32,000 nt of DNA from Candidatus Methanoperedens sp. (GCA_041494705.1 JBGQBI010000005.1:210001-242000), one strand, 5' to 3'; shown: positions 821 through 9,940, numbered from the stretch's first letter. Notes: generated by a model not told the origin, from the letters alone. A program made the numbers and translations.

Positions 821-3751
821 ATGACCAGCAGGATTGAAGTAGGTTTTAAAAAGGGAATGAAAGACGCATTGGGCGAAGGTGTCAAGAAAAGGATAGTTGA
901 AGACCTGCATATTAACGTGGACTCTGTCAGGACTATCGAGGTTTACACCTTTGACGCAGACTTTTCAGAAAATGAACTGAATCTGCTGGGTGAAAAATTA
1001 TTTGCCGACCCCGTAATCCAGGTCTTCTCATCCAAACCGCTGGCAGAGGATTTTTCATGGCTGATAGAAGTGGGATTCAAGCCTGGCGTGACCGACAATG
1101 TCGGAGCGACTTCGAAAAAGGCATCTGAAGACGTGCTTAAAACCGAATTGCGGGGAGTTTATTTTTCAAGACAGTATCTTATCAGGGGAAATATCACAAA
1201 AGAAGATGCCGATAAAATTGCAGGCGGGCTTCTTGCGAACAGCCTGATTGAAAGGTGGGAAATAATAAACATTGACGACTGGAACCGTGAAAAGGGCGTG
1301 CGCCTTCCACTGCCGGTAGTGAAAGGAAAACACACACCTTCGGTTTCGGCACTAAATCTGGATGTCAGCGACAACCAGTTAAAGGAAATAAGCGTTCAAA
1401 GACTTCTTGCCCTCAACCTTGCTGAAATGAAAACAATTCAGAAATATTTTTCTGATGCCGGTGTCAGAAAAGAAAGAAAAGAAATCGGTCTTTCCCTTCC
1501 CACGGACGTAGAAATCGAGGCGCTTGCACAGACATGGTCTGAACACTGTAAACACAAGATTTTCAACAGCCAGATAACCTATACTGATGAAAAAGGAACC
1601 AAGACAATAAATTCTCTTTTTGATACTTTCATAAAGCGCTCAACCAGGGAAATCAACAAACCCTGGCTTGTCTCTGTTTTTACCGATAACGCCGGAGTTA
1701 TCAAATTCAATGACGATTATAACCTTGTGATGAAGGTGGAGACGCACAATACACCCTCTGCACTTGACCCTTACGGCGGCGCAATCACGGGTATCGTAGG
1801 CGTGAACCGCGACCCGCTTGGCACTGGCATGGGGGCGCGGTTGATTTTCAATACCGATGTATTCTGTTTTGCATCGCCCTTCTATGACAAGGAATTACCG
1901 CCGCGGCTTCTGCACCCGAAAAGGATTTTCGAAGGGGTGAGGCGCGGCGTGGAGCACGGTGGGAACAAGAGCGGTATCCCGACGGTGAACGGCTGCATCG
2001 TTTTTGATGAGAGATATCTCGGAAAACCCCTTGTTTACTGCGGGACGGGCGGGATAATGCCCTCCATGATTAACGGCAAGCCTTCCCACATTAAAGAGAT
2101 TAATCCCGGCGACCTGATAGTGATGACAGGGGGTCGCATCGGGAAAGACGGCATACACGGCGCCACGTTTTCCTCGCTTGAACTTGATGAGAATTCGCCT
2201 GTAACAGCAGTCCAGATAGGCGACCCCATAACCCAGAAAAAGATGCTGGATTTCCTGCTTGAGGCGCGGGATTTGGGGCTGTATAATGCCATCACGGATG
2301 ACGGCGCAGGAGGATTGTCCTCATCCGTGGGTGAGATGGCACAGCTTAGCGGAGGATGCCTTATCGAGCTTGAGAAATGCCCCCTGAAATATCCGGGACT
2401 TGACCCGTGGGAAATACTGCTTTCGGAATCGCAGGAAAGAATGACGCTTGCCGTATCTCCGGATAAGATTAATGATTTCCTGGCTCTTGCAAAAACAAGG
2501 GATGTTGAGGCAACGACCATAGGTACTTTCACGGACACAGGAAAATTCCATGCAAAGTACGGCGATAAAAACGTGGCTTACCTTGATATGGATTTCCTGC
2601 ACAAAGGCCTTCCCACGATGAAGCTGAATGCACGGTGGGAACGTAGGAAGTTCGAAGAACCCGTGCTTGGGATTGTGGATTTAACAGCCGCGCTCAAAAA
2701 CCTCCTCTCGCGTCTTAATATCTGTTCAAAAGAATATGTCATCAGGCAATACGACCATGAAGTGCAGGGTGGCTCGGTTGTAAAGCCGCTTACGGGCGAC
2801 GGACCGAGTGACGCTGCGGTTATCCGGCCTCTGCTTGACAGCATGGAAGGGGTCGTGGTTGCAAATGGCATCTGCCCGAGGTACGGTGATATTGATACAT
2901 ACCACATGACGGCATGCGCCATCGATGAGGCAGTGCGGAACCACATTTGCGTGGGAGGCTCGTTTGACCACCTCGCGGGTCTTGATAATTTCTGCTGGTG
3001 CGACCCTGTGAAATCCGAGAAAAACCCTGATGGCGAGTTCAAGCTGGCGCAGCTTGTGAGAGCGAACAAGGCATTATATGATTATACGAAAGCCTACGGC
3101 GTGCCCTGCATTTCTGGAAAGGACAGCATGAAGAACGATTATATAATCGGAAGCAGGAAAATATCCATACCGCCAACAGTGCTTTTCTCAACGATTGGCA
3201 AGATAGAGGATGTGAGGAAAGCAGTGACTATGGACGTTAAAAAACTGGACGACAGGGTTTATGTCCTCGGCATAACGAAGGATGAACTCGGAGCTTCCGA
3301 GTATTTTGCTTCACTTGGTTTTATAGGCAACGACGTGCCGAGAGTTGATGCGGCGTCTGCAAAGCGATTGTATATTGCTCTTGAAAGAGCCATCAACGAA
3401 GGCACAGTAGCTTCGTGCCATGACTGCTCTGACGGCGGTCTTGGCGTTGCGCTGGCTGAGAGCGCATTTTCAGGCGAACTTGGCATGACCATTGAATTGA
3501 CAAAAGTGCCCGTGGAGAACATCAAGCGCGCCGATACGATACTGTTCTCGGAGTCACAGAGCCGCTTTGTGGTGACGGTGGCGCCGGAAAAAGTTGCGAG
3601 GTTTGAGGAGAGTATGAGAGGAAACGTGTTTGCAGATGTGGGCGCGGTTACGGCGCCGCAGGATTTCATGGTGATGGACGGGGAGAAAGTGGTGCTGAGC
3701 GCGGGGAACGATGAGTTGAAAGAAGCGTGGCAGAGGACGTTGCGGTGGTGA
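821..3751 (+). CDS. purL: Phosphoribosylformylglycinamidine synthase PurL with two fused N-terminal PurS-like repeats
   Basis: The 976-aa product carries PurL/AIR-synthase-type motifs (ETHNTPSALDPYGGA, GDPxxxK, two PurM-like halves). The N-terminal 160 aa or so contains two PurS-like repeats: IEVGFKKGMKDALGEGV...LFADPVIQ and IEVGFKPGVTDNVGAT...LLANSLIERWEI. Confidence 0.93.
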   Translation: MTSRIEVGFKKGMKDALGEGVKKRIVEDLHINVDSVRTIEVYTFDADFSENELNLLGEKLFADPVIQVFSSKPLAEDFSWLIEVGFKPGVTDNVGATSKKASEDVLKTELRGVYFSRQYLIRGNITKEDADKIAGGLLANSLIERWEIINIDDWNREKGVRLPLPVVKGKHTPSVSALNLDVSDNQLKEISVQRLLALNLAEMKTIQKYFSDAGVRKERKEIGLSLPTDVEIEALAQTWSEHCKHKIFNSQITYTDEKGTKTINSLFDTFIKRSTREINKPWLVSVFTDNAGVIKFNDDYNLVMKVETHNTPSALDPYGGAITGIVGVNRDPLGTGMGARLIFNTDVFCFASPFYDKELPPRLLHPKRIFEGVRRGVEHGGNKSGIPTVNGCIVFDERYLGKPLVYCGTGGIMPSMINGKPSHIKEINPGDLIVMTGGRIGKDGIHGATFSSLELDENSPVTAVQIGDPITQKKMLDFLLEARDLGLYNAITDDGAGGLSSSVGEMAQLSGGCLIELEKCPLKYPGLDPWEILLSESQERMTLAVSPDKINDFLALAKTRDVEATTIGTFTDTGKFHAKYGDKNVAYLDMDFLHKGLPTMKLNARWERRKFEEPVLGIVDLTAALKNLLSRLNICSKEYVIRQYDHEVQGGSVVKPLTGDGPSDAAVIRPLLDSMEGVVVANGICPRYGDIDTYHMTACAIDEAVRNHICVGGSFDHLAGLDNFCWCDPVKSEKNPDGEFKLAQLVRANKALYDYTKAYGVPCISGKDSMKNDYIIGSRKISIPPTVLFSTIGKIEDVRKAVTMDVKKLDDRVYVLGITKDELGASEYFASLGFIGNDVPRVDAASAKRLYIALERAINEGTVASCHDCSDGGLGVALAESAFSGELGMTIELTKVPVENIKRADTILFSESQSRFVVTVAPEKVARFEESMRGNVFADVGAVTAPQDFMVMDGEKVVLSAGNDELKEAWQRTLRW

Positions 3752-3897
3752 TCAATATTGTAGTAAGTGAATATGGAAAATCTCTTCTTGAACCTGAGCT
3801 TAGACCGGAATTTATCAAAAAAATCAAAGCAAGGAAAAAAGAGAAGACCATTAAGATCACGGATTTTAGCTGTCATTACGGCTTAGATTAATATGTA

Positions 3898-3993
3898 ATG
3901 TCCCTTTGCGATGAGCTTGAAGCCGGAATTGCGCGCTCGGAGGCGGATAGCGGGAGGTTGATGGAGGCGTGGCAGAGGACGCTGCGGTGGTAG
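3898..3993 (+). pseudogene. Relic duplicate of the purL 3' end (31 codons ending MEAWQRTLRW-stop)
   Basis: GCGTGGCAGAGGACGCTGCGGTGGTA at 3967-3992 repeats GCGTGGCAGAGGACGTTGCGGTGGTG at 3725-3750. Weaker similarity extends about 30 nt on both sides. The relic's reading frame ends with the same EAWQRTLRW as purL. Confidence 0.7.
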
Positions 3994-4109
3994 TGAATTA
4001 TTGCAGGTGAATTACAGTAACCATTTCAACTTGGTTCTCATCATCCCCATCAAAGCTATAGTCTATTATCGGCGATAGTTTTATTTATGAATCTTGAGAG
4101 GTTACTATC

Positions 4110-4655
4110 ATGCCACCAAAAGCTGTTAGAACAGTAAGAGATTTAATCTACTGGCAATATGCAAAACTTATAGCTGAGTCGGTAGGTTATGGAAAAACCA
4201 AGAACTATGGTTTTATCATGGACAGATTCAAACAGCTTAAAAAAGGGGATATTCAATGGTCAGGGTCTATAAGGGAATATGTAAAAGAGCGAGAAAAGCG
4301 GAACGAATGCATATATTGCGGGAGTAAGGAGCCTTTAAGTACTGATCATCTGATACCCAAAAGCAGGGGAGGGCCTGATACGGGGGACAACGCCATTACT
4401 GCATGTAAGAGGTGCAATTCATCTAAAGGAGATAGGGGTGTTTATGAGTGGTACGGACTTGAAAGAAGGAATGAACTTCCCAGGATAGTTGAAGGAAAAT
4501 ATTTGAAGCTGCTTTACTCACTTCATGAAAAAGAAGGAACATTAGACGTAGATATCAAGGATCTGGATAAATTATGCAAGATATGCGATTTAGGGGATTT
4601 GTGCGAAGAAACATCGTTGACCGTCTATTGCCTTGAGAGCATTTTGAAGAAATAG
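4110..4655 (+). CDS. HNH endonuclease family protein
   Basis: The HNH core reads CIYCGSKEPLSTDHLIPKSRGGPDTGDNAITACKRCNSSKGDR (Cys pair, D-H, N, Cys pair). A GAGAGGT ribosome-binding site lies upstream. The gene is visibly more AT-rich than purL. Confidence 0.85.
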   Translation: MPPKAVRTVRDLIYWQYAKLIAESVGYGKTKNYGFIMDRFKQLKKGDIQWSGSIREYVKEREKRNECIYCGSKEPLSTDHLIPKSRGGPDTGDNAITACKRCNSSKGDRGVYEWYGLERRNELPRIVEGKYLKLLYSLHEKEGTLDVDIKDLDKLCKICDLGDLCEETSLTVYCLESILKK

Positions 4656-4741
4656 GCCTGGCAACGCAAGGAGATTCGTAGTTTCATTTCACTTACATGC
4701 ATGTATTCCGGCTAAAAGACTTTATATATCCACAATGACAA

Positions 4742-6175
4742 TTGCAAATGAGGGTTGGTATGAGACAAGATGAAATACTTAAAAAAGCACAGTTTAAAGA
4801 ACAAAATGGCGTAAAGATTCTGCGCATTAAAGGCAAACCATATGAGATGGGATATCAGCATGGCTATTTTTTAGCTGGTAGAATAGCCCTTATGATAAAC
4901 AGGACGCTTCTGGCTACTGCCGCTTATGTTGCCAAACAGACGGGTTCGGACCTTAAAAAAGCGCAGGAGATGTTGTGGACAGGACAGAAAAAAGCGGAAC
5001 CGTTTCTTCCGGGGGAGTTTAAAGAAGAAATGAAGGGAATCGCCGACGGTGCAAAAGCTGCGGGAGTGAACGTAACCCTGGAGCAGATATTGCTCTGGAA
5101 TACCAACTATGACCAATGGTGTATCTACTGCCATCCCCATTACTGGCAGTGCGATGGCAAGGAAAATCCGGAGCCTTCGGGCTTAACCCGACCTGCTGGC
5201 GGCGGGTGCAGCAGCTTTTGCGCCTGGGATGAATGGGCGGGCGGCGATGGTAAATTGATTTTCGGCAAGAATGAAGATAATTTCAACATGCCGGAGCAAC
5301 TGGATAACCGGATGATGGTCATAGCCGACCCGGATAACGGATTCGGTCACGCCTTCCTGACTTATCCGGGGATGATCGGGCTGGACGGGGGCGTAAATGA
5401 GAAGGGTTTTGAGATGATGACGCAACTGAACTCCATGCAATTTGAAAGTATGGAAGGCTGCGGTATTGCCATATTCACACGCCTGCTGCTGACCCATGCA
5501 AGTACCGTGGATGATGCCATAAAAATATTCCGGGAGCACCCCCGCTGCGCCGGCATTGCATACCATGTGGCGGATGCCAAAGCCAAAAAGGCGGCGGTTG
5601 TTGAGACATCTTCCAGAATGGTTTGTGTCCGTTATCCCATGCCCGATGTCAAAGCGATGTGGCAGTCAAACCATTCGAACTGCTATCCGGGCTGGGCGGG
5701 TTATTCGGGATACAATATGGTTGCTGACCAGGTGCTTGTGAACGAACTCAAGGATATCTCCACTATTGAAAACTGGCAGGACAGCCTTAAAGACCCATAT
5801 AATTTCTTCGTCCAGGCGCCCAGCCGTTTTGAACGGTACGGACAGTTGATCCACGAATATTATGGCAAAATCACTCCGGAAAATGCCATAAAAATATTAA
5901 GCGACCGCTACGACCCTTATACGCGGATGACCCGTCCGGCGGATTTTCCCTCATGGACTAATAATATCCTCTGCACCATATGCGCCATGTATCCCGATTT
6001 TACTTATCAGGCGCAAGAGCCTGTGGGAACGTTTAAAGCCCATGTAGCCAACATGTGGAGCCTTGTGGCTTATCCCGAAACCGGAGATCTCTGGCTTGCA
6101 ATAAATAACTTCCCGGCGCAGTATGGCGGGTATGAACATTTCAATCTGAAGGAATTGCTGGGTCGCGCGCGTTAA
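4742..6175 (+). CDS. Peptidase C45 / acyl-CoA:6-APA acyltransferase-like Ntn hydrolase
   Basis: The N-terminal GKPYEMGYQHGYFLAGRI is typical of the C45 family. The putative nucleophile context is GGGCSSFCAW, followed by GKLIFGKNEDN (Ntn-hydrolase Cys plus the N-x-D motif). No signal peptide is present. The start is ambiguous: TTG 4742, ATG 4748, or ATG 4760 preceded by GAGGG. Confidence 0.75.
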   Translation: MQMRVGMRQDEILKKAQFKEQNGVKILRIKGKPYEMGYQHGYFLAGRIALMINRTLLATAAYVAKQTGSDLKKAQEMLWTGQKKAEPFLPGEFKEEMKGIADGAKAAGVNVTLEQILLWNTNYDQWCIYCHPHYWQCDGKENPEPSGLTRPAGGGCSSFCAWDEWAGGDGKLIFGKNEDNFNMPEQLDNRMMVIADPDNGFGHAFLTYPGMIGLDGGVNEKGFEMMTQLNSMQFESMEGCGIAIFTRLLLTHASTVDDAIKIFREHPRCAGIAYHVADAKAKKAAVVETSSRMVCVRYPMPDVKAMWQSNHSNCYPGWAGYSGYNMVADQVLVNELKDISTIENWQDSLKDPYNFFVQAPSRFERYGQLIHEYYGKITPENAIKILSDRYDPYTRMTRPADFPSWTNNILCTICAMYPDFTYQAQEPVGTFKAHVANMWSLVAYPETGDLWLAINNFPAQYGGYEHFNLKELLGRAR

Positions 6176-6253
6176 ATCGTGAACTGCATTATCTGATTTA
6201 TAAATGAGTATCATTAAATAGTATGAATGTTACCTTATAAATGGTGGTAAAAG

Positions 6254-6667
6254 GTGGATATCAACGGTATCTGGTACAACGAACTCGGATCGATAATGGA
6301 TTTAAGAGTTTCAGGGAATGTGATGACGGGCAAATATCAAACAAAAGTTGGAGGCGCGCCGGGAATTTATCCTCTGGCGGGATATTTGAATGCACCCAAC
6401 CCCAATGGTATTGCTGTTGGCTGGACGGTTCTCTGGAATAATCAGCTTGGAAATAAGCAGAGTCTTACATCGTGGGCCGGTCAATACCAGCTCAGCGACG
6501 GGATTGAGGAAATATACACATTCTGGCTGCTTGTGAGGGAATTAGAGCATGCTGAAGACTGGGAAGCTACAAACATAGGTCAGGACATATTTACCCGCAA
6601 TAAACCCAGCGAGAAGATGATTCTAAAGGCAAAGAAAAGAGGAAAATTTTCCCATCCGATCCAATGA
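6254..6667 (+). CDS. Avidin/streptavidin-family biotin-binding protein, leaderless
   Basis: GIWYNELGS..MTGKYQTKVGG..GIAVGWTVLWNN..KQSLTSWAGQY..TFWLLV..EDWEATNIGQDIFT aligns along its length with core streptavidin (GTWYNQLGS..LTGTYESAVGN..ALGWTVAWKN..AHSATTWSGQY..TQWLLT..NAWKSTLVGHDTFT). The start is GTG at 6254, with an in-frame TAA at 6248-6250 directly upstream. Confidence 0.85.
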   Translation: MDINGIWYNELGSIMDLRVSGNVMTGKYQTKVGGAPGIYPLAGYLNAPNPNGIAVGWTVLWNNQLGNKQSLTSWAGQYQLSDGIEEIYTFWLLVRELEHAEDWEATNIGQDIFTRNKPSEKMILKAKKRGKFSHPIQ

Positions 6668-6696
6668 GCACCATGCTATTTTAATTTGCACGTTAG

Positions 6697-6722
6697 TTTA
6701 GTTCTTGGTACCAAGAACTAAA
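6697..6722. terminator. Perfect 26-nt palindrome between convergent genes (putative bidirectional terminator hairpin)
   Basis: TTTAGTTCTTGGTACCAAGAACTAAA is its own reverse complement. It lies between the avidin-like gene (+) and the 159-aa gene (-) and overlaps the stop codon of the latter. Confidence 0.55.
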
Positions 6723-7197
6723 TATACGCCCTTCTCAGCCTGTCCTTATGCTCATTATATTTTTTCCTGAAAGACAGGTCATCCATCATCCTATTAACCT
6801 GGCTCTTAAGTTTTTGTTCAAGCGCCGCCTGTTTGCCTGAAAGAAGCTCCTTGCACAAAAGATTTGATGAATCCGAAGAATACGTCTGTATCCCTCCCAT
6901 AACAATCGAAATCCCCCGGTTCTGCGGCGTCATGGTCCCAAAGGGCACCGGTGAACCGTCTTTCATTATTTTTTCAAGGTCATTGTCATAACGCGATACT
7001 TCCGCGCCCACTGCGACAAATTCACCGGGCTTGACTTCCTCGGATTTAATCTGCCATAACTTATTCTCTCCGCCTATAAAAGTATCATGATATTCGCGGT
7101 TCATGCCTGCAAGCACCCGCCATCTTGATTTATCCTTGCTTTTATCATATGATTCTTTCATTGTCCCCATGAGGGAGCTGATATTCTTGATTGCCAT
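6718..7197 (-). CDS. Hypothetical protein (159 aa), translationally coupled to the upstream AAA ATPase
   Basis: The ORF is long and has no competing frame. Its ATG overlaps the AAA gene stop by 1 nt (TAATG). I recognise no motif in it. Confidence 0.65.
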   Translation of the reverse strand: MAIKNISSLMGTMKESYDKSKDKSRWRVLAGMNREYHDTFIGGENKLWQIKSEEVKPGEFVAVGAEVSRYDNDLEKIMKDGSPVPFGTMTPQNRGISIVMGGIQTYSSDSSNLLCKELLSGKQAALEQKLKSQVNRMMDDLSFRKKYNEHKDRLRRAYI

Positions 7198-8306
7198 TAT
7201 GCAAACATTCCCCTCGGAGGTTCGGATTTTTTCCCCGTTGCCTCTGCAAGTGCAGCCTCAAAATGTGCTTTTGTTACCCTGCCGCCTGAAAGTATGGCTT
7301 TATGGAATGCGTTCTTGAGGAGTTTTTCAACAAGGTCCCTTCCCGAGAAACCCGATGTCGCCTTCGCCATGGCTTCAAGATTCACATCTTTTCCAAGTTT
7401 CTTTGGGAATGTGGCTGAATAAAGTTTAAGGATTTCATACCGTTCGCTCAGGGTCGGGATGGTGAATTCAATCTCTTCCTCAAAGCGGCTGCGTATGGCA
7501 GGATCAAGCGTGTTGAGCATATTTGTAGCTGCGATGGTGCATATCCCTTCACGCTCATCTATCCCGTCCATCTCGGTGAGCAGCGCATTTACAATCTCGG
7601 CTACATCGCCACGTATTTCCTGGTAGTTCCGGTTAAGCGCGATTGCATCAAATTCATCTATGAAAATTATGCAGGGCATAAGTTCCTCAGCTTTCTCATA
7701 TAGCTGGTGTATCTGGCGCGAACCGTCGCCCACGAACTCGCCTATGAGCCTGGTTGCCCGGATGGGCAAAAACGGGACTTCAGTTGCATTGGAAAGCGCC
7801 TTTGCCATCATGGTTTTTCCTGTGCCCGCAGGCCCATGGAATAAAATATTCTTTGGCAGCCATTTCCCGAATTTCTCAGGGTTTTTAAGAAAACTTTCGA
7901 TAAGCTTGCATTTTTGCTTTGCTTTTTCCTGCCCTATGACTTTGCTGAATGTGACTTCACTTCTGGTTTCAGGAACAAAAAAATCAGAATCATAATCCTC
8001 GACCACGAATTTTGTATTTTTGCCAATCTCGGAATTTTCAGGTTCAACATTTACGACCTTGAAAGCAAAATCCGGGAACATCCTCTTGTCAAAAAGAAAG
8101 TCTCCTTTTTTCACTACAAATCCATTCCACTGCTCCCTTGCATAGAATTCAAAAACATCAAGTTCGCAGGGTTCAGGGTATTCGTGGAACATACCTTTTA
8201 ACGGGTAACCTGCCGGCTTCACAACTACCGTTTTCGCTCCAAACCCTTCCAGGTTTGATTTGAATTTATTGCTTTTTTTATTGCTTACCCGTTGTTTTGC
8301 TCGCAT
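7197..8306 (-). CDS. AAA+ ATPase with a single AAA domain and an N-terminal substrate-type domain (AMA-like, the Archaeoglobus/methanogen AAA family)
   Basis: Walker A is GPAGTGKT and Walker B is IIFIDEFD. The second region of homology (ATNMLNTLDPAIRSRF) is present. The 369-aa size and architecture (about 130-aa N-domain plus one AAA module) match the AMA family described for Archaeoglobus and methanogens. Confidence 0.85.
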   Translation of the reverse strand: MRAKQRVSNKKSNKFKSNLEGFGAKTVVVKPAGYPLKGMFHEYPEPCELDVFEFYAREQWNGFVVKKGDFLFDKRMFPDFAFKVVNVEPENSEIGKNTKFVVEDYDSDFFVPETRSEVTFSKVIGQEKAKQKCKLIESFLKNPEKFGKWLPKNILFHGPAGTGKTMMAKALSNATEVPFLPIRATRLIGEFVGDGSRQIHQLYEKAEELMPCIIFIDEFDAIALNRNYQEIRGDVAEIVNALLTEMDGIDEREGICTIAATNMLNTLDPAIRSRFEEEIEFTIPTLSERYEILKLYSATFPKKLGKDVNLEAMAKATSGFSGRDLVEKLLKNAFHKAILSGGRVTKAHFEAALAEATGKKSEPPRGMFA

Positions 8307-8331
8307 AAAACCAAGTAATGTCGGTTACCTA

Positions 8332-9372
8332 TTAAATGGTTGCCCCAGATTTTGCACTCTTTAGAAATTCCTTTATTCCAAGACCTGTATTTTGCAAAAG
8401 TTTGAACGCCAGTTCCTGCGATGGCCATGAACCAAGCCCGCAGTCAGGACCGGCATATTTTATCCTGTCGCCGAATATGCCATACGCTTTTTCAAGCCGC
8501 TTCTTTATGATATCCGGTGTTTCCATCTGTGTCGTTATCTCGTTGAGCTTTGCGGGTTCTTTCCAGACATTCGTCCCGTATTTCTCGTTGAGCGCCGCAG
8601 CCATGCCGAAAATATCTGTACGCGCTGCCCCGATTCTCAGGAATTTATCATAATCTGCAAGGTCTTTCTTATCGACGAGGTCAAGATACGATGGGTTAGC
8701 GGCTGATTCAACACCAATGATGCCAATGGATGGTACGTTGCACACAAGTTTGTAATGAAGCGGGGAATGGAGATGGATTTCCGTATCTATCTTATGCGAA
8801 GCGGATGTCCTTGCGGCTTTTTCAAGGGCTCCTGCCAGGTCGCTTTCACTGAACATTATCTGGGGATTTATCCCTATGCTGGGTTCATCTATGGAAACTG
8901 TGGCTATGCGTATCTGTTTTGCATTATCGATGGAATTGGCGATGAACCTGTCGATGCTGGTTGCAAATGCGTCCAGTACATCCTTGTATGCAGTCCCGCC
9001 GAACTGTTTCAAATACAGTTCAACTGGACCTGTCACGCATATCCTCACGTCCAGTTTTTTTCCATTTTTTTTGTAATATTCCGCGCCTGTTTCTTCAATG
9101 GCAGAAAGCTCCATTATCCTTGCTTTTTCCTTGCGGACGATGAGAGGCTCCTCCTGGGCTGATTCGTCATTGATTATCCCGAGGAACTGCTGGTTCATAT
9201 CCTGGAACTGGGGATATGTGGGCACATCCACGCCAGCGTCTATTTTCTGGCGCATCGCATCGCGTATAATAGCGATTAATTTCGGGTCGTTGTTTTTTAC
9301 AGCAGAGGCTATCCATTCTTTGCTTATCCCTTCAGGCAGCGGATAGCTTCCGATATCATCAAAAAGTATCAT
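8332..9372 (-). CDS. MetE-like protein (cobalamin-independent methionine synthase C-terminal domain / URO-D-CIMS superfamily)
   Basis: The 346-aa product has a C-terminal GPDCGLGSW matching the MetE zinc-ligand DCGL motif, and an IHLHSP segment where MetE has the H-x-C site. The exact substrate is not inferable. Confidence 0.6.
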   Translation of the reverse strand: MILFDDIGSYPLPEGISKEWIASAVKNNDPKLIAIIRDAMRQKIDAGVDVPTYPQFQDMNQQFLGIINDESAQEEPLIVRKEKARIMELSAIEETGAEYYKKNGKKLDVRICVTGPVELYLKQFGGTAYKDVLDAFATSIDRFIANSIDNAKQIRIATVSIDEPSIGINPQIMFSESDLAGALEKAARTSASHKIDTEIHLHSPLHYKLVCNVPSIGIIGVESAANPSYLDLVDKKDLADYDKFLRIGAARTDIFGMAAALNEKYGTNVWKEPAKLNEITTQMETPDIIKKRLEKAYGIFGDRIKYAGPDCGLGSWPSQELAFKLLQNTGLGIKEFLKSAKSGATI

Positions 9373-9625: not shown

Positions 9626-9940
9626 TCACGCTTTTGCTTTCTCACATGCGGCGATATGTTCCTTCAAAACTGATTCTAAAGCATCAATTCTTTCCTCGGT
9701 TTTAAGCTGGATTAAAATTGCCTTGACATCTCCTTTCAGTTCAGAATTGCTCAAACGGGATTCTTCACGGAATGCTCTGAATTCGTCCTTGAGACCGTGC
9801 ATTTCTTCGGTCATATTCTTGAATCCGGTATCAACTTTTTCTTCAGGTTTAGAGATGCGTTCGGTATTCTCTCTAACCTTATCCATGATAGTAACAAGTT
9901 CTTTAAGTTTCTCGTAAATGTCTCCGAGTCCTATTGCCAT
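9626..9940 (-). CDS. Hypothetical coiled-coil protein (104 aa)
   Basis: The sequence is charged and heptad-like (EKLKELVTIMDKVRENTERI...ELKGDVKAILIQLKTEERIDALESVLKEHI). It sits directly downstream of the repeated promoter-like module. No domain was recognised. Confidence 0.55.
   Translation of the reverse strand: MAIGLGDIYEKLKELVTIMDKVRENTERISKPEEKVDTGFKNMTEEMHGLKDEFRAFREESRLSNSELKGDVKAILIQLKTEERIDALESVLKEHIAACEKAKA

What the first reader, a model, noticed from the sequence alone, without database searches (positions are those of the whole stretch)
4110..6722. Accessory trio of HNH nuclease, C45 Ntn amidohydrolase and avidin between a duplicated purL end and a perfect palindrome
Three same-strand genes with no obvious housekeeping logic sit between the purL 3'-end duplication (3725-3993) and a perfect 26-nt palindrome (6697-6722). 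All three proteins lack signal peptides. C45/Ntn hydrolases cleave amide bonds using an autoprocessed N-terminal Cys, here in the context GGGC-SSF. An amide-cleaving enzyme placed directly upstream of a biotin binder suggests a coupled module. One possibility is release or capture of biotin from biotinyl-amide conjugates such as biocytin or biotinyl-peptides. Another is a biotin-starvation effector with a nuclease partner. I do not know of this gene combination being described. The HNH gene looks more AT-rich than its neighbours, which fits acquisition as an island.
Basis: inference. Interest (0 to 1): 0.75.

Follow-up and report, generated by a model that had tools for sequence, protein, structure and literature searches.

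The report
Three unrelated genes; avidin in an archaeon
The three genes are real (a small nuclease, an amide-cleaving enzyme and a biotin-binding avidin in a methane-oxidising archaeon), but they are separate single-gene insertions in a variable chromosome spot rather than one machine. Only the enzyme-avidin neighbourhood recurs elsewhere, once, in an unrelated bacterium.

Summary
The window, from a Candidatus Methanoperedens chromosome, carries an HNH gene (4110-4655), a C45 Ntn proenzyme (4760-6175) and a leaderless streptavidin/tamavidin-like avidin with an intact biotin pocket (6254-6667). It also carries the purL-end duplication and a unique 26-nt palindrome.

The trio and single-island readings fail:
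- Sister genomes have C45 without avidin or HNH, avidin without C45, and avidin alone in other contexts.
- The slot upstream of C45 holds HNH, AbiE or a radical-SAM cluster, depending on the genome.
- The purL duplication brackets only a decayed toxin-antitoxin insertion.
- Half of the palindrome predates the avidin.
- C45 has its own TTTATATA promoter.
- Both genes stay under purifying selection with or without the other.
- 40 of 42 other C45 contexts and about 70 bacterial avidin loci show no pairing and no recurrent partner.

An unrelated bacterium carries a divergent secreted avidin 0.7 kb from a C45 ortholog. Chance predicts 1e-4 to 1e-3 such cases. An Anaerolineae avidin also sits beside an S45 Ntn acylase.

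Verdict: a mosaic of independent cargo genes. A facultative avidin-amidase link is possible but unproven. Interest is moderate.

The parts
821..3751 (+). purL (FGAM synthase II, 976 aa), present reading frame
   Evidence: ORF. Pfam AIRS/AIRS_C/FGAR-AT_linker on the identical gene in L001.
3751..3897 (+). 5'-truncated remnant of a DUF2683 antitoxin-like gene (ORF 3727-3891), fused to the purL stop
   Evidence: PF10884 at 29.6 bits. 96.6% identical to the 3' two-thirds of the intact 77-aa gene in L087. In L087 that gene is followed by a RelE-like ORF and an RHH/PIN pair.
3905..3993 (+). displaced ancestral purL 3' end (reads ...EAWQRTLRW*)
   Evidence: Translation. In L086 the sequence directly after the purL stop matches window 3996-4088.
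4089..4712 (+). variable segment carrying the solitary HNH endonuclease gene (4110-4655, 181 aa)
   Evidence: PF01844 and PF14279. PDB 4h9d at 8e-09. The segment is absent from L086, L011 and L012 and present in L087-L089.
4721..4728 (+). TTTATATA box with an A-rich upstream element; putative own promoter of C45
   Evidence: Read from the sequence. Homology to all other Methanoperedens C45 loci begins at 4707-4713, so it includes this box. Function is inferred.
4760..6175 (+). C45 family Ntn acyltransferase/amidohydrolase proenzyme (471 aa); predicted autocleavage G149|C150 (Cys codon 5207-5209)
   Evidence: PF03417 at 160 bits and NF040521 at 152 bits. Invariant C150-S-S-F. AF2 pLDDT 88.4 with a disordered linker at 140-143. 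Foldseek top hits are the isopenicillin-N acyltransferase (IAT) structures 2x1c/2x1d, E = 5e-18.
6176..6711 (+). avidin cassette: the segment missing in L086, where C45 abuts the convergent gene
   Evidence: blastn breakpoints and junction sequences.
6254..6667 (+). leaderless streptavidin/tamavidin-like avidin (137 aa, GTG start), with a C-terminal extension ending in SHP (6650-6658)
   Evidence: PF01382 at 92.7 bits. Streptavidin biotin-contact residues are conserved. dN/dS is 0.07-0.32. SHP motif statistics.
6697..6722 (.). perfect 26-nt palindrome (12-bp stem hairpin) between the convergent avidin and hyp159 genes; it overlaps the hyp159 stop codon (6718-6720)
   Evidence: The right arm pre-exists in L086. 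The left arm travels with the avidin cassette in L010 and L012.
6718..9372 (-). conserved convergent block: hyp159 (6718-7197), PRS2-type AAA ATPase (7197-8306), methionine-synthase-like gene (8332-9372); not part of the variable region
   Evidence: Syntenic in L009, L010 and L086.

Best explanation
The region is a variable spot in a Candidatus Methanoperedens chromosome. It lies between purL and a conserved convergent operon (hyp159, AAA ATPase, methionine-synthase-like gene). It has been filled piecemeal by independent single-gene units, which act separately.

1. A toxin-antitoxin (TA) cassette inserted into the purL 3' end and duplicated that end. In this genome it has decayed to a 5'-truncated DUF2683 remnant.
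2. A solitary HNH endonuclease from a widespread, highly conserved family occupies a slot that holds AbiEi/AbiEii or a radical-SAM cluster in other genomes. It is most likely a selfish or defence-type nuclease (inferred).
3. A C45 Ntn proenzyme has its own TATA promoter. It self-cleaves at G149|C150 and hydrolyses or transfers an unknown small acyl-amide. It belongs to a family that moves between archaea and bacteria as a single gene.
4. A leaderless avidin, acquired from bacteria, inserted between the C45 stop and the 3' end of the convergent gene. The junction forms a 3'-end hairpin. The avidin binds biotin or a biotin analogue inside the cell or after lysis (binding inferred from the conserved pocket).

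The C45-avidin adjacency in Methanoperedens is mainly inherited synteny.
For: Shown:
- Annotation and fold.
- Breakpoints. L086 has C45 followed directly by hyp159, without avidin or HNH. In L010 the homology starts at window 6198, giving avidin without C45. In L003, L004 and L005 only the avidin ORF (6243-6669) is shared, in other contexts. L011 ends at 6679.
- The slot upstream of C45 holds HNH in the window and L087-L089, AbiEi/AbiEii in L011 (1e-92 and 2e-65), and a radical-SAM/amine-oxidase/UbiA cluster in L086 and L012.
- HNH homologs (722 proteins, 62-98% identity) are solitary in unrelated contexts.
- The C45 ORF alone is shared between L144 and L174 (89% nucleotide identity) and with L139 and L140 (81%).
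- 90 neighbour ORFs of 42 independent C45 contexts hit 89 different Pfam families, with no recurrent partner and no biotin-related family among those displayed.
- About 70 bacterial avidin loci contain no C45 by tblastn or by an ortholog HMM, and no recurrent partner.
- dN/dS for the avidin is 0.07-0.32 in every context. dN/dS for C45 is 0.17 both with (L011) and without (L086) the avidin.
- A TTTATATA box lies 32 nt upstream of the C45 ATG.
- The purL scar and TA array are laid out in L087.
- A published survey reports bacterial avidins to be often on mobile elements (PMC8033661).
Against: - A second, independent avidin-C45 neighbourhood exists (L141/L144). It involves a different avidin subtype and a different gene order, and the 2.8-kb block is conserved between two strains whose flanks differ. 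A random model expects only 7e-5 to 1e-3 such cases.
- The Anaerolineae avidin loci L073, L074 and L076 share a neighbouring 729-aa gene. The L073 and L076 copies, the two that were scanned, match the S45 penicillin-amidase family, another Ntn acylase.
- Natural aspartic-peptidase-avidin fusions are published (PMC8033661).
- The 78-bp C45-avidin spacer has no oligo-T terminator, so read-through cannot be excluded.
- No expression or biochemical data exist.
Confidence: 0.62

Rival explanations
1. C45 and avidin form a facultative two-gene functional pair. An Ntn amidohydrolase cleaves an amide conjugate of biotin or a biotin analogue (biocytin, biotinyl-peptides, or an amide-linked antimetabolite). 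The avidin then captures or neutralises the released acid. Selection occasionally brings the two genes together, but each also works alone.
For: - The adjacency arose independently in an archaeon and in a bacterium, with avidins of different subtypes. The chance expectation is 7e-5 to 1e-3.
- The pair is retained in at least four Methanoperedens species with similar dS for the two genes.
- An avidin sits next to an S45 Ntn acylase in Anaerolineae.
- Avidin-peptidase fusions are published (PMC8033661).
- Streptavidin genes are functionally tied to neighbouring biotin-pathway enzymes in Streptomyces (PMC13336041).
- From knowledge of the family: C45 members such as Drosophila Tan hydrolyse small amides.
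Against: - 40 of 42 independent C45 contexts and all of the roughly 70 bacterial streptavidin-type avidin loci lack the pairing.
- C45 relatives 86-92% identical to the L144 enzyme have no avidin nearby.
- Sister Methanoperedens genomes separate the two genes with no change in selective constraint.
- In L144 the avidin is secreted while C45 has no signal peptide, and the Anaerolineae case is the reverse, so the partners sit in different compartments.
- C45 has its own promoter.
- The S45 case is not significant on its own once one counts how many hydrolase families could have been noticed.
Confidence: 0.22
2. The three genes form one acquired island or defence module (a biotin-starvation effector with a nuclease partner), bounded by the purL duplication and the palindrome.
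For: - All three genes lie on the same strand with short spacers.
- The slot carries TA or abortive-infection genes in relatives.
- HNH matches candidate-defence HNH models weakly (PDC-M01B at 4e-09).
- HNH is somewhat AT-rich.
Against: - HNH, C45 and avidin each have different presence/absence patterns and different breakpoints.
- The purL repeats flank only the TA remnant.
- The right arm of the palindrome pre-exists without the avidin.
- C45 and avidin have no PADLOC hits.
- Composition is not aberrant.
- No integrase or transposase is present in the region.
- No relatives were found in viral contigs.
Confidence: 0.04
3. The avidin is a leaderless 'pro-avidin' anti-grazing or anti-competitor factor that acts alone. 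Its pocket is kept plugged in the cytoplasm by its own C-terminal SHP tail. It is released and activated on lysis or digestion, as proposed for fungal tamavidins. C45 and HNH are irrelevant bystanders.
For: - It belongs to a large leaderless clade.
- An [S/P/A]-H-P motif occurs in 66 of 104 tails, and in 55 of them it lies exactly 23-24 residues after the pocket Asp.
- Intrinsic C-terminal ligands are documented for bradavidin and streptavidin C1 (PMC3344845; PMC7924230).
- From knowledge: HPQ peptides bind the streptavidin pocket.
- The avidin is under purifying selection in every context.
Against: - Tail docking is untested, because the AF2 model was poor (pLDDT 59.9).
- There are no ecological or biochemical data.
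- This reading is compatible with the best explanation rather than exclusive of it.
Confidence: 0.3

Closest known systems
Streptavidin / tamavidin (avidin family, PF01382; PDB 1stp, 2zsc)
   Same: - The avidin domain is matched end to end.
- The streptavidin contact residues N23, S27, Y43, W79, S88, T90, W92, W108, W120 and D128 are all conserved.
- The C-terminal extension aligns with that of pre-streptavidin (KPSAASIDAAKKAG).
- It has no leader peptide, like tamavidin.
   Different: - The host is an archaeon. Archaea are not mentioned in the 2021 survey of prokaryotic avidins.
- S45 is replaced by T and N49 by G.
- The tail ends in a conserved SHP motif.
- Biotin binding has not been measured.
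Acyl-CoA:isopenicillin-N acyltransferase (MEROPS C45; PDB 2x1c/2x1d/2x1e)
   Same: - αββα Ntn fold (Foldseek E = 5e-18, target-normalised TM 0.77-0.80).
- Gly-Cys self-cleavage motif preceded by a flexible linker.
   Different: - Only about 16% identity, with no sequence-level PDB hit.
- A 149-residue pro-region.
- Unknown substrate.
- A prokaryotic, horizontally mobile single gene.
Streptomyces 'streptavidin BGC nexus' (PMC13336041)
   Same: An avidin gene is co-located with enzymes, and the precedent shows that such neighbours can be functionally tied to biotin chemistry.
   Different: - There, two streptavidin genes flank multi-gene biosynthetic clusters for biotin antimetabolites.
- Here there is one hydrolase and no biosynthetic genes, and the adjacency is dispensable in sister genomes.
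Aspartic-peptidase-avidin fusion proteins of Pseudomonas, Oleiagrimonas and others (PMC8033661)
   Same: An avidin is physically linked to an amide-bond hydrolase.
   Different: - That hydrolase is a pepsin-like A1 endopeptidase, not an Ntn acylase.
- It is a domain fusion rather than a neighbouring gene, and the proteins are secreted.
Small stand-alone HNH endonuclease Gmet_0936 (PDB 4h9d) and the HNH domains of IscB/Cas9
   Same: ββα-metal core with two CxxC pairs and a DH...N motif.
   Different: - It has an extra 60-aa N-terminal region and a 70-aa Cys-rich C-terminal region.
- It scores far below the IscB and Cas9 family cutoffs (52 against 175 bits).
- It has no guide-RNA partner or RuvC domain.

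Membership tests
Avidin/streptavidin family (PF01382) | Profile match over the whole 8-stranded barrel domain, above the curated cutoff | tested here: met
   92.7 bits against a cutoff of 24, covering residues 3-114 of 116 profile positions. Streptavidin and tamavidin PDB chains match at E = 1e-24.
Avidin/streptavidin family (PF01382) | Conserved biotin-contact residues, including the inter-subunit Trp (streptavidin W120) | tested here: met
   Alignment with core streptavidin shows N, S, Y, W79, S88, T90, W92, W108, W120 and D128 conserved. S45 is T and N49 is G.
Avidin/streptavidin family (PF01382) | High-affinity biotin binding | not testable with these tools
   Needs recombinant protein. 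The AF2 model was poor (pLDDT 59.9).
MEROPS C45 / C45_proenzyme (PF03417, NF040521) | Profile matches above the curated cutoffs | tested here: met
   160.4 bits against 23.2, and 152.3 bits against 85.
MEROPS C45 / C45_proenzyme (PF03417, NF040521) | Gly-Cys autoprocessing site with an invariant nucleophile Cys | tested here: met
   C150, S151, S152 and F153 are invariant and G148 and G149 at least 90% conserved in 45 orthologs. The first core strand starts at residue 151, after a linker with pLDDT below 50. The cleavage itself was not tested.
MEROPS C45 / C45_proenzyme (PF03417, NF040521) | αββα Ntn-hydrolase fold closest to isopenicillin-N acyltransferase | tested here: met
   AF2 pLDDT 88.4 and pTM 0.91. 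Foldseek ranks 1-7 are 2x1c/2x1d/2x1e, followed by penicillin V acylase, bile salt hydrolase, acid ceramidase and N-acylethanolamine acid amidase (NAAA).
HNH endonuclease (PF01844) | ββα-Me motif with a catalytic His and two CxxC zinc ligand pairs | tested here: met
   52.5 bits against 21.4. The sequence CIYC...DH...N...CKRC aligns with 4h9d.
RNA-guided IscB/Cas9 | Full-length match including the RuvC and bridge domains | tested here: not met
   Only the HNH domain aligns: 52 bits against a cutoff of 175 (IscB) and 48 against 375 (Cas9d).
Conserved three-gene module / operon | Co-localisation of all three genes in other genomes | tested here: not met
   HNH is absent next to C45 in L009(?), L011, L012, L086 and the 82 other C45 loci. 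The HNH-C45 pair occurs only in L087-L089, whose contigs end before any avidin gene could be seen.
Conserved C45-avidin gene pair | Adjacency recurring in independent lineages beyond chance | tested here: inconclusive
   Two independent lineages show it: Methanoperedens and L141/L144. Chance expects 7e-5 to 1e-3. However, 40 of 42 C45 contexts and about 70 avidin loci lack it, and the genes are separable in sister genomes.
Integrated island bounded by target-site duplication | Direct repeats flanking the whole accessory segment, with an integrase | tested here: not met
   The purL-end repeats flank only 3752-3993 (a TA remnant; 1.5 kb in L087). HNH, C45 and the avidin lie outside them. No integrase is present.
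Streptavidin-linked biotin-antimetabolite BGC nexus | Biosynthetic clusters (stravidin, acidomycin, α-methyl-KAPA) next to the avidin genes | tested here: not met
   The neighbours are purL, HNH, C45, hyp159 and an AAA ATPase. There are no biosynthetic genes.

The most novel reading that the evidence does not exclude
Avidins and Ntn-type acyl-amide hydrolases (C45 here and in a bacterium; S45 in Anaerolineae) form a recurrent, facultative two-component system for handling amide conjugates of biotin or biotin analogues. It would be a prokaryotic 'biotinidase plus binder' pair, built from an enzyme family with no characterised prokaryotic substrate. Separately, leaderless avidins, including this first archaeal example, may be auto-inhibited by a conserved C-terminal SHP plug that mimics the Strep-tag HPQ motif.
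Probability: 0.2. Interest if true: 0.65.

Novelty: new member of a known kind. Interest (0 to 1): 0.4.

Why it matters
- It extends the avidin family to archaea (ANME-2d methane oxidisers). It also shows that the gene behaves as a mobile single-gene cargo under purifying selection.
- It identifies a highly conserved C45 enzyme family of unknown substrate that is exchanged between domains.
- If the weak but statistically unexpected avidin-Ntn-acylase association is real, it would give that enzyme family a testable substrate class (biotinyl amides). It would also give avidins a metabolic partner.
- If the association is not real, the locus is an ordinary mosaic of accessory genes. It then serves as a warning against reading function from a single adjacency.

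Tried and rejected
- **Single island.** Rejected by the breakpoints.
- **Compositional evidence for an island.** HNH has z = -1.2, and C45 and the avidin are typical.
- **Defence-system membership.** C45 and the avidin have no PADLOC hits. HNH gives only generic HNH-domain hits.
- **Sequence search of C45 against the PDB.** No hit. Resolved instead by AF2 and Foldseek.
- **Viral origin.** None of the three proteins has relatives in viral contigs.
- **Plasmids.** No C45 of this family was found. Avidins occur on 8 plasmids.
- **Conserved partner for C45 or for leaderless avidins.** Clustering and Pfam counts found none. Only the top 25 families per call are displayed, so rare biotin-related neighbours could have been missed.
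- **Link between C45 and radical-SAM genes.** These occur in L086, L012 and L011 but are not homologous across arrangements and are absent from the window.
- **Avidin fusion proteins in the representative library.** The seven with a partner domain or a single avidin domain were engineered constructs or carried no second natural domain (protein A, TNF, Ig). Three others carried only two avidin domains and their origin was not established. Not informative.
- **AF2 of the avidin, to see whether the SHP tail docks.** The model was too poor.
- **Literature.** No paper was found on archaeal avidins or on avidin-C45.
Full report
**Source and observation**

The window matches contig JBGPSC010000002.1 of assembly GCA_041489935.1. 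Its closest relatives are MAGs titled Candidatus Methanoperedens sp., so I take it to be an ANME-2d archaeal chromosome. The rest of the window is housekeeping: argG, an aminoacyl-tRNA synthetase, ilvC, PEP synthase and an RNA ligase.

- HNH: PF01844 at 5e-14.
- C45/AAT: PF03417 at 7e-47, and NCBIfam C45_proenzyme at 152 bits against a cutoff of 85.
- Avidin: PF01382 at 3e-26.

The avidin aligns end to end with streptavidin and tamavidin. It keeps the biotin-contact residues, including the W120 equivalent; only S45 (to T) and N49 (to G) differ. An in-frame stop two codons upstream of its GTG start excludes a leader peptide.

For C45, the residues G148, G149, C150, S151, S152 and F153 are invariant or nearly so in 45 orthologs. 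The AF2 model (pLDDT 88.4) has a disordered linker just before C150. Its best structural matches are the Penicillium isopenicillin-N acyltransferase structures (E = 5e-18, TM 0.8), followed by other Cys-Ntn acylases.

The palindrome is perfect and unique and forms a 12-bp stem. The purL-end duplication is real.

Two corrections apply. C45 almost certainly starts at ATG 4760. The lower GC of HNH (39.9%) is not an outlier among the window's ORFs (z = -1.2).

**Anatomy from comparative genomics**

blastn against six related Methanoperedens loci resolves the region into separate blocks.

(a) *purL end.* In L086 the sequence directly after the purL stop matches window 3996-4088. The fragment 3905-3993, which still reads ...EAWQRTLRW*, is therefore the displaced ancestral purL end. 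In L087 the interval between the functional purL end and that remnant holds an intact DUF2683 gene (77 aa), a RelE-like ORF and an RHH/PIN pair. In the window only the 3' two-thirds of DUF2683 survives (3751-3897, 96.6% identical), fused to the purL stop. The duplication is thus the scar of a toxin-antitoxin insertion and brackets nothing else.

(b) *HNH segment.* Window 4089-4712, carrying HNH, is present in L087-L089. In L086 and L012 it is replaced by a 5.9-kb FilR1/UbiA/amine-oxidase/DUF5838/radical-SAM cluster. In L011 it is replaced by AbiEi/AbiEii.

(c) *C45.* Window 4713-6175, including a TTTATATA box at 4721-4728, is shared by L009, L011, L012 and L086.

(d) *Avidin cassette.* Window 6176-6711 is missing in L086, where C45 abuts hyp159. 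In L010 the avidin is present without C45, and homology starts at 6198. In L003, L004 and L005 only the ORF itself (6243-6669) is shared, in unrelated contexts.

(e) *Palindrome.* The right arm contains the hyp159 stop codon and already exists in L086. The left arm travels with the avidin cassette. The hairpin is therefore a junction or 3'-end structure between convergent genes, not an island border.

**Are the genes functionally tied?**

*HNH.* It belongs to a family of at least 722 proteins, 62-98% identical, found across archaea and bacteria. In other phyla the gene sits alone among unrelated housekeeping genes. None of the 82 other C45 loci carries it. It is not part of a module.

*C45.* Orthologs that are 62-90% identical occur in Methanosarcina, Methanothrix, Altiarchaeota, Desulfobacterales, Rhodoferax and Flavobacteriales. 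In 42 independent contexts, 90 neighbouring ORFs hit 89 different Pfam families, and no family occurs more than twice. Between related bacteria only the ORF itself is homologous. It behaves as a single-gene unit of horizontal transfer.

*Avidin.* About 70 bacterial loci with streptavidin-type avidins contain no C45, either by tblastn or by an ortholog HMM, and show no recurrent partner.

*Selection.* dN/dS for the avidin is 0.07-0.32 whether or not C45 is adjacent. dN/dS for C45 is 0.17 both with and without the avidin.

These results reject an obligate couple and a trio.

**The result that cuts the other way**

Among 79 metagenomic C45 loci, two contigs (L141 and L144, 96.6% identical C45 proteins) carry a secreted, rhizavidin-like avidin (PF01382 at 1.4e-15). 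It lies 0.7 kb upstream of the C45 ortholog on the same strand. The 2.8-kb block of avidin, a 96-aa ORF and C45 is conserved at 93.6% between the two contigs although their flanks differ. The neighbouring genes (FixG/FixH, a LysR regulator, a rhomboid) indicate a bacterium.

This avidin is far diverged from the archaeal one (it matched the streptavidin-type profile only at E = 1e-5), and the gene order is reversed. The event is therefore independent.

Avidins are rare: 1,399 of 1.836 billion representative proteins, or 7.6e-7. With about 95 neighbour genes surveyed in 42 independent contexts, chance predicts 7e-5 to 1e-3 avidin neighbours. This estimate is rough. It uses cluster-level frequencies and assumes uniform gene placement, and accessory genes tend to cluster.

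The three Anaerolineae avidin loci (L073, L074, L076) share a neighbouring 729-aa gene on the opposite strand. The L073 and L076 copies, the two that were scanned, match the S45 penicillin-amidase family, another Ntn acylase. This case is not significant on its own. Natural aspartic-peptidase-avidin fusions are also published (PMC8033661).

Against a link:
- C45 relatives 86-92% identical to the L144 enzyme lack an avidin.
- In the bacterial cases one partner is secreted and the other is not.

I therefore keep a facultative avidin-amidase association as a live minority hypothesis (about 0.2).

**Mechanism, with status**

Shown: gene identities, fold, conserved catalytic and binding residues, breakpoints, selection and distribution.

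Inferred:
- C45 self-cleaves at G149|C150 and acts on a small acyl-amide.
- The avidin binds biotin.
- C45 and the avidin each have their own promoter (TTTATATA at 4721-4728; TTTATAAA at 6197-6204, with GGTGGT five bases before the GTG).
- The hairpin marks the 3' ends of the convergent transcripts.
- HNH is a selfish or defence-type nuclease.

Unknown: the C45 substrate, and why a cytoplasmic femtomolar biotin binder is tolerated.

**Comparison with known systems and novelty**

Each protein is a clear member of a known family. The 2021 survey of prokaryotic avidins does not mention archaea, and no paper in the library links Methanoperedens or C45 to avidin. Four Methanoperedens species and one Nitrososphaeraceae MAG carry avidins.

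Lacking a leader peptide is not special. Most of the nearest bacterial relatives, in Nitrospirota, Acidobacteriota, Bacteroidota, Chloroflexota and others, start the same way. About half of the surveyed bacterial avidins lack signal peptides.

The locus is a new member of known kinds. The pairing, if real, would be a new variant of the theme 'avidin plus biotin-related enzyme' known from Streptomyces (PMC13336041).

**Side observation**

In the leaderless clade the C-terminal extension carries an [S/P/A]-H-P motif. It occurs in 66 of 104 tails, and in 55 of them it lies exactly 23-24 residues after the pocket Asp. The window protein ends ...KFSHPIQ. This recalls the HPQ peptides that occupy the streptavidin pocket (my knowledge) and the intrinsic C-terminal ligands of bradavidin and streptavidin C1 (PMC3344845; PMC7924230). 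It suggests an auto-inhibitory plug that could explain cytoplasmic tolerance. This is untested, because the AF2 model was poor.

Noticed in passing
window 6650-6658 (SHP in ...KFSHPIQ*); proteins P0250-P0396: Leaderless avidins carry a conserved C-terminal [S/P/A]-H-P motif. It occurs in 66 of 104 representatives with a tail, and in 55 of them it lies exactly 23-24 residues after the biotin-contact Asp. It resembles the HPQ/Strep-tag pocket ligand and the intrinsic C-terminal ligands of bradavidin and streptavidin C1. It may be an auto-inhibitory plug. It is not mentioned in the avidin papers read.
   Followed up: partly
window 3727-3993; L087:3375-4897: The purL 3'-end duplication is the scar of a toxin-antitoxin cassette inserted into the purL end. 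L087 keeps DUF2683 (77 aa), a RelE-like 52-aa ORF and an RHH/PIN pair between purL and the purL remnant. The window keeps only a 5'-truncated DUF2683 fused to the purL stop.
   Followed up: yes
L144:2832-5407 and L141:2726-5433: A bacterial contig pair carries a secreted rhizavidin-like avidin, a 96-aa membrane ORF and a C45 ortholog as a conserved 2.8-kb block between differing flanks. The organism was not identified; its neighbours are FixG/FixH, a LysR regulator and a rhomboid.
   Followed up: partly
L076:3571-5754(-) with avidin 6001-6363(+); L073:175-2358(-); L074:3590-5779(-): In Anaerolineae a leaderless avidin lies about 250 bp from a divergently oriented, signal-peptide-bearing penicillin-amidase (S45 Ntn acylase) gene. 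The L073 and L076 copies were confirmed by Pfam (PF01804, best E = 1e-125); L074 is linked to them by blastp clustering only.
   Followed up: partly
L007 (3648 bp) and L008 (3534 bp): Two small contigs that look like circular permutations of one another encode a Rep_1 rolling-circle replication protein and a signal-peptide avidin (P0007, 44-47% identical to the window protein). This looks like an approximately 3.5-kb plasmid whose main cargo is an avidin.
   Followed up: no
L009:1095-1263; L009/L010 upstream of the hairpin: In L009 a roughly 170-bp AT-rich insertion with its own inverted repeat (ACAGGATTGACAGGAT / ATCCTGTTAATCCTGT) splits the left arm of the hairpin. L009 and L010 also carry a tandem duplication of GTTAGTTTAGTTC there.
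   Followed up: no
L012:4514-5915: The C45 gene next to an intact avidin is split by a frameshift near codon 268. It is either a pseudogene or an assembly error in an 11x MAG. If real, it is another sign that the avidin does not need C45.
   Followed up: no
L174:1381-2818 versus L144:3986-5422: C45 genes with 89% nucleotide identity share nothing outside the ORF (±15 bp). Orthologs are 62-80% identical between archaea and bacteria. This is a single-gene unit of cross-domain horizontal transfer with unknown function.
   Followed up: partly
window 6718-8306 (-): hyp159 and a PRS2-type AAA ATPase overlap by one base (7197) and are conserved in Methanoperedens. The ATPase matches IetA anti-phage models at 1e-41 but is far below the NCBIfam IteA cutoff (131 against 510 bits), so it was not filed as a defence gene.
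   Followed up: no
window 9626-9940 (-); L009:4057-5389; L010:5542-6573: The 104-aa protein starting MAIGLGDIYEKLKEL... has two to four diverged tandem paralogs in sister genomes. It is a small coiled-coil-like gene family of variable copy number just beyond the methionine-synthase-like gene.
   Followed up: no
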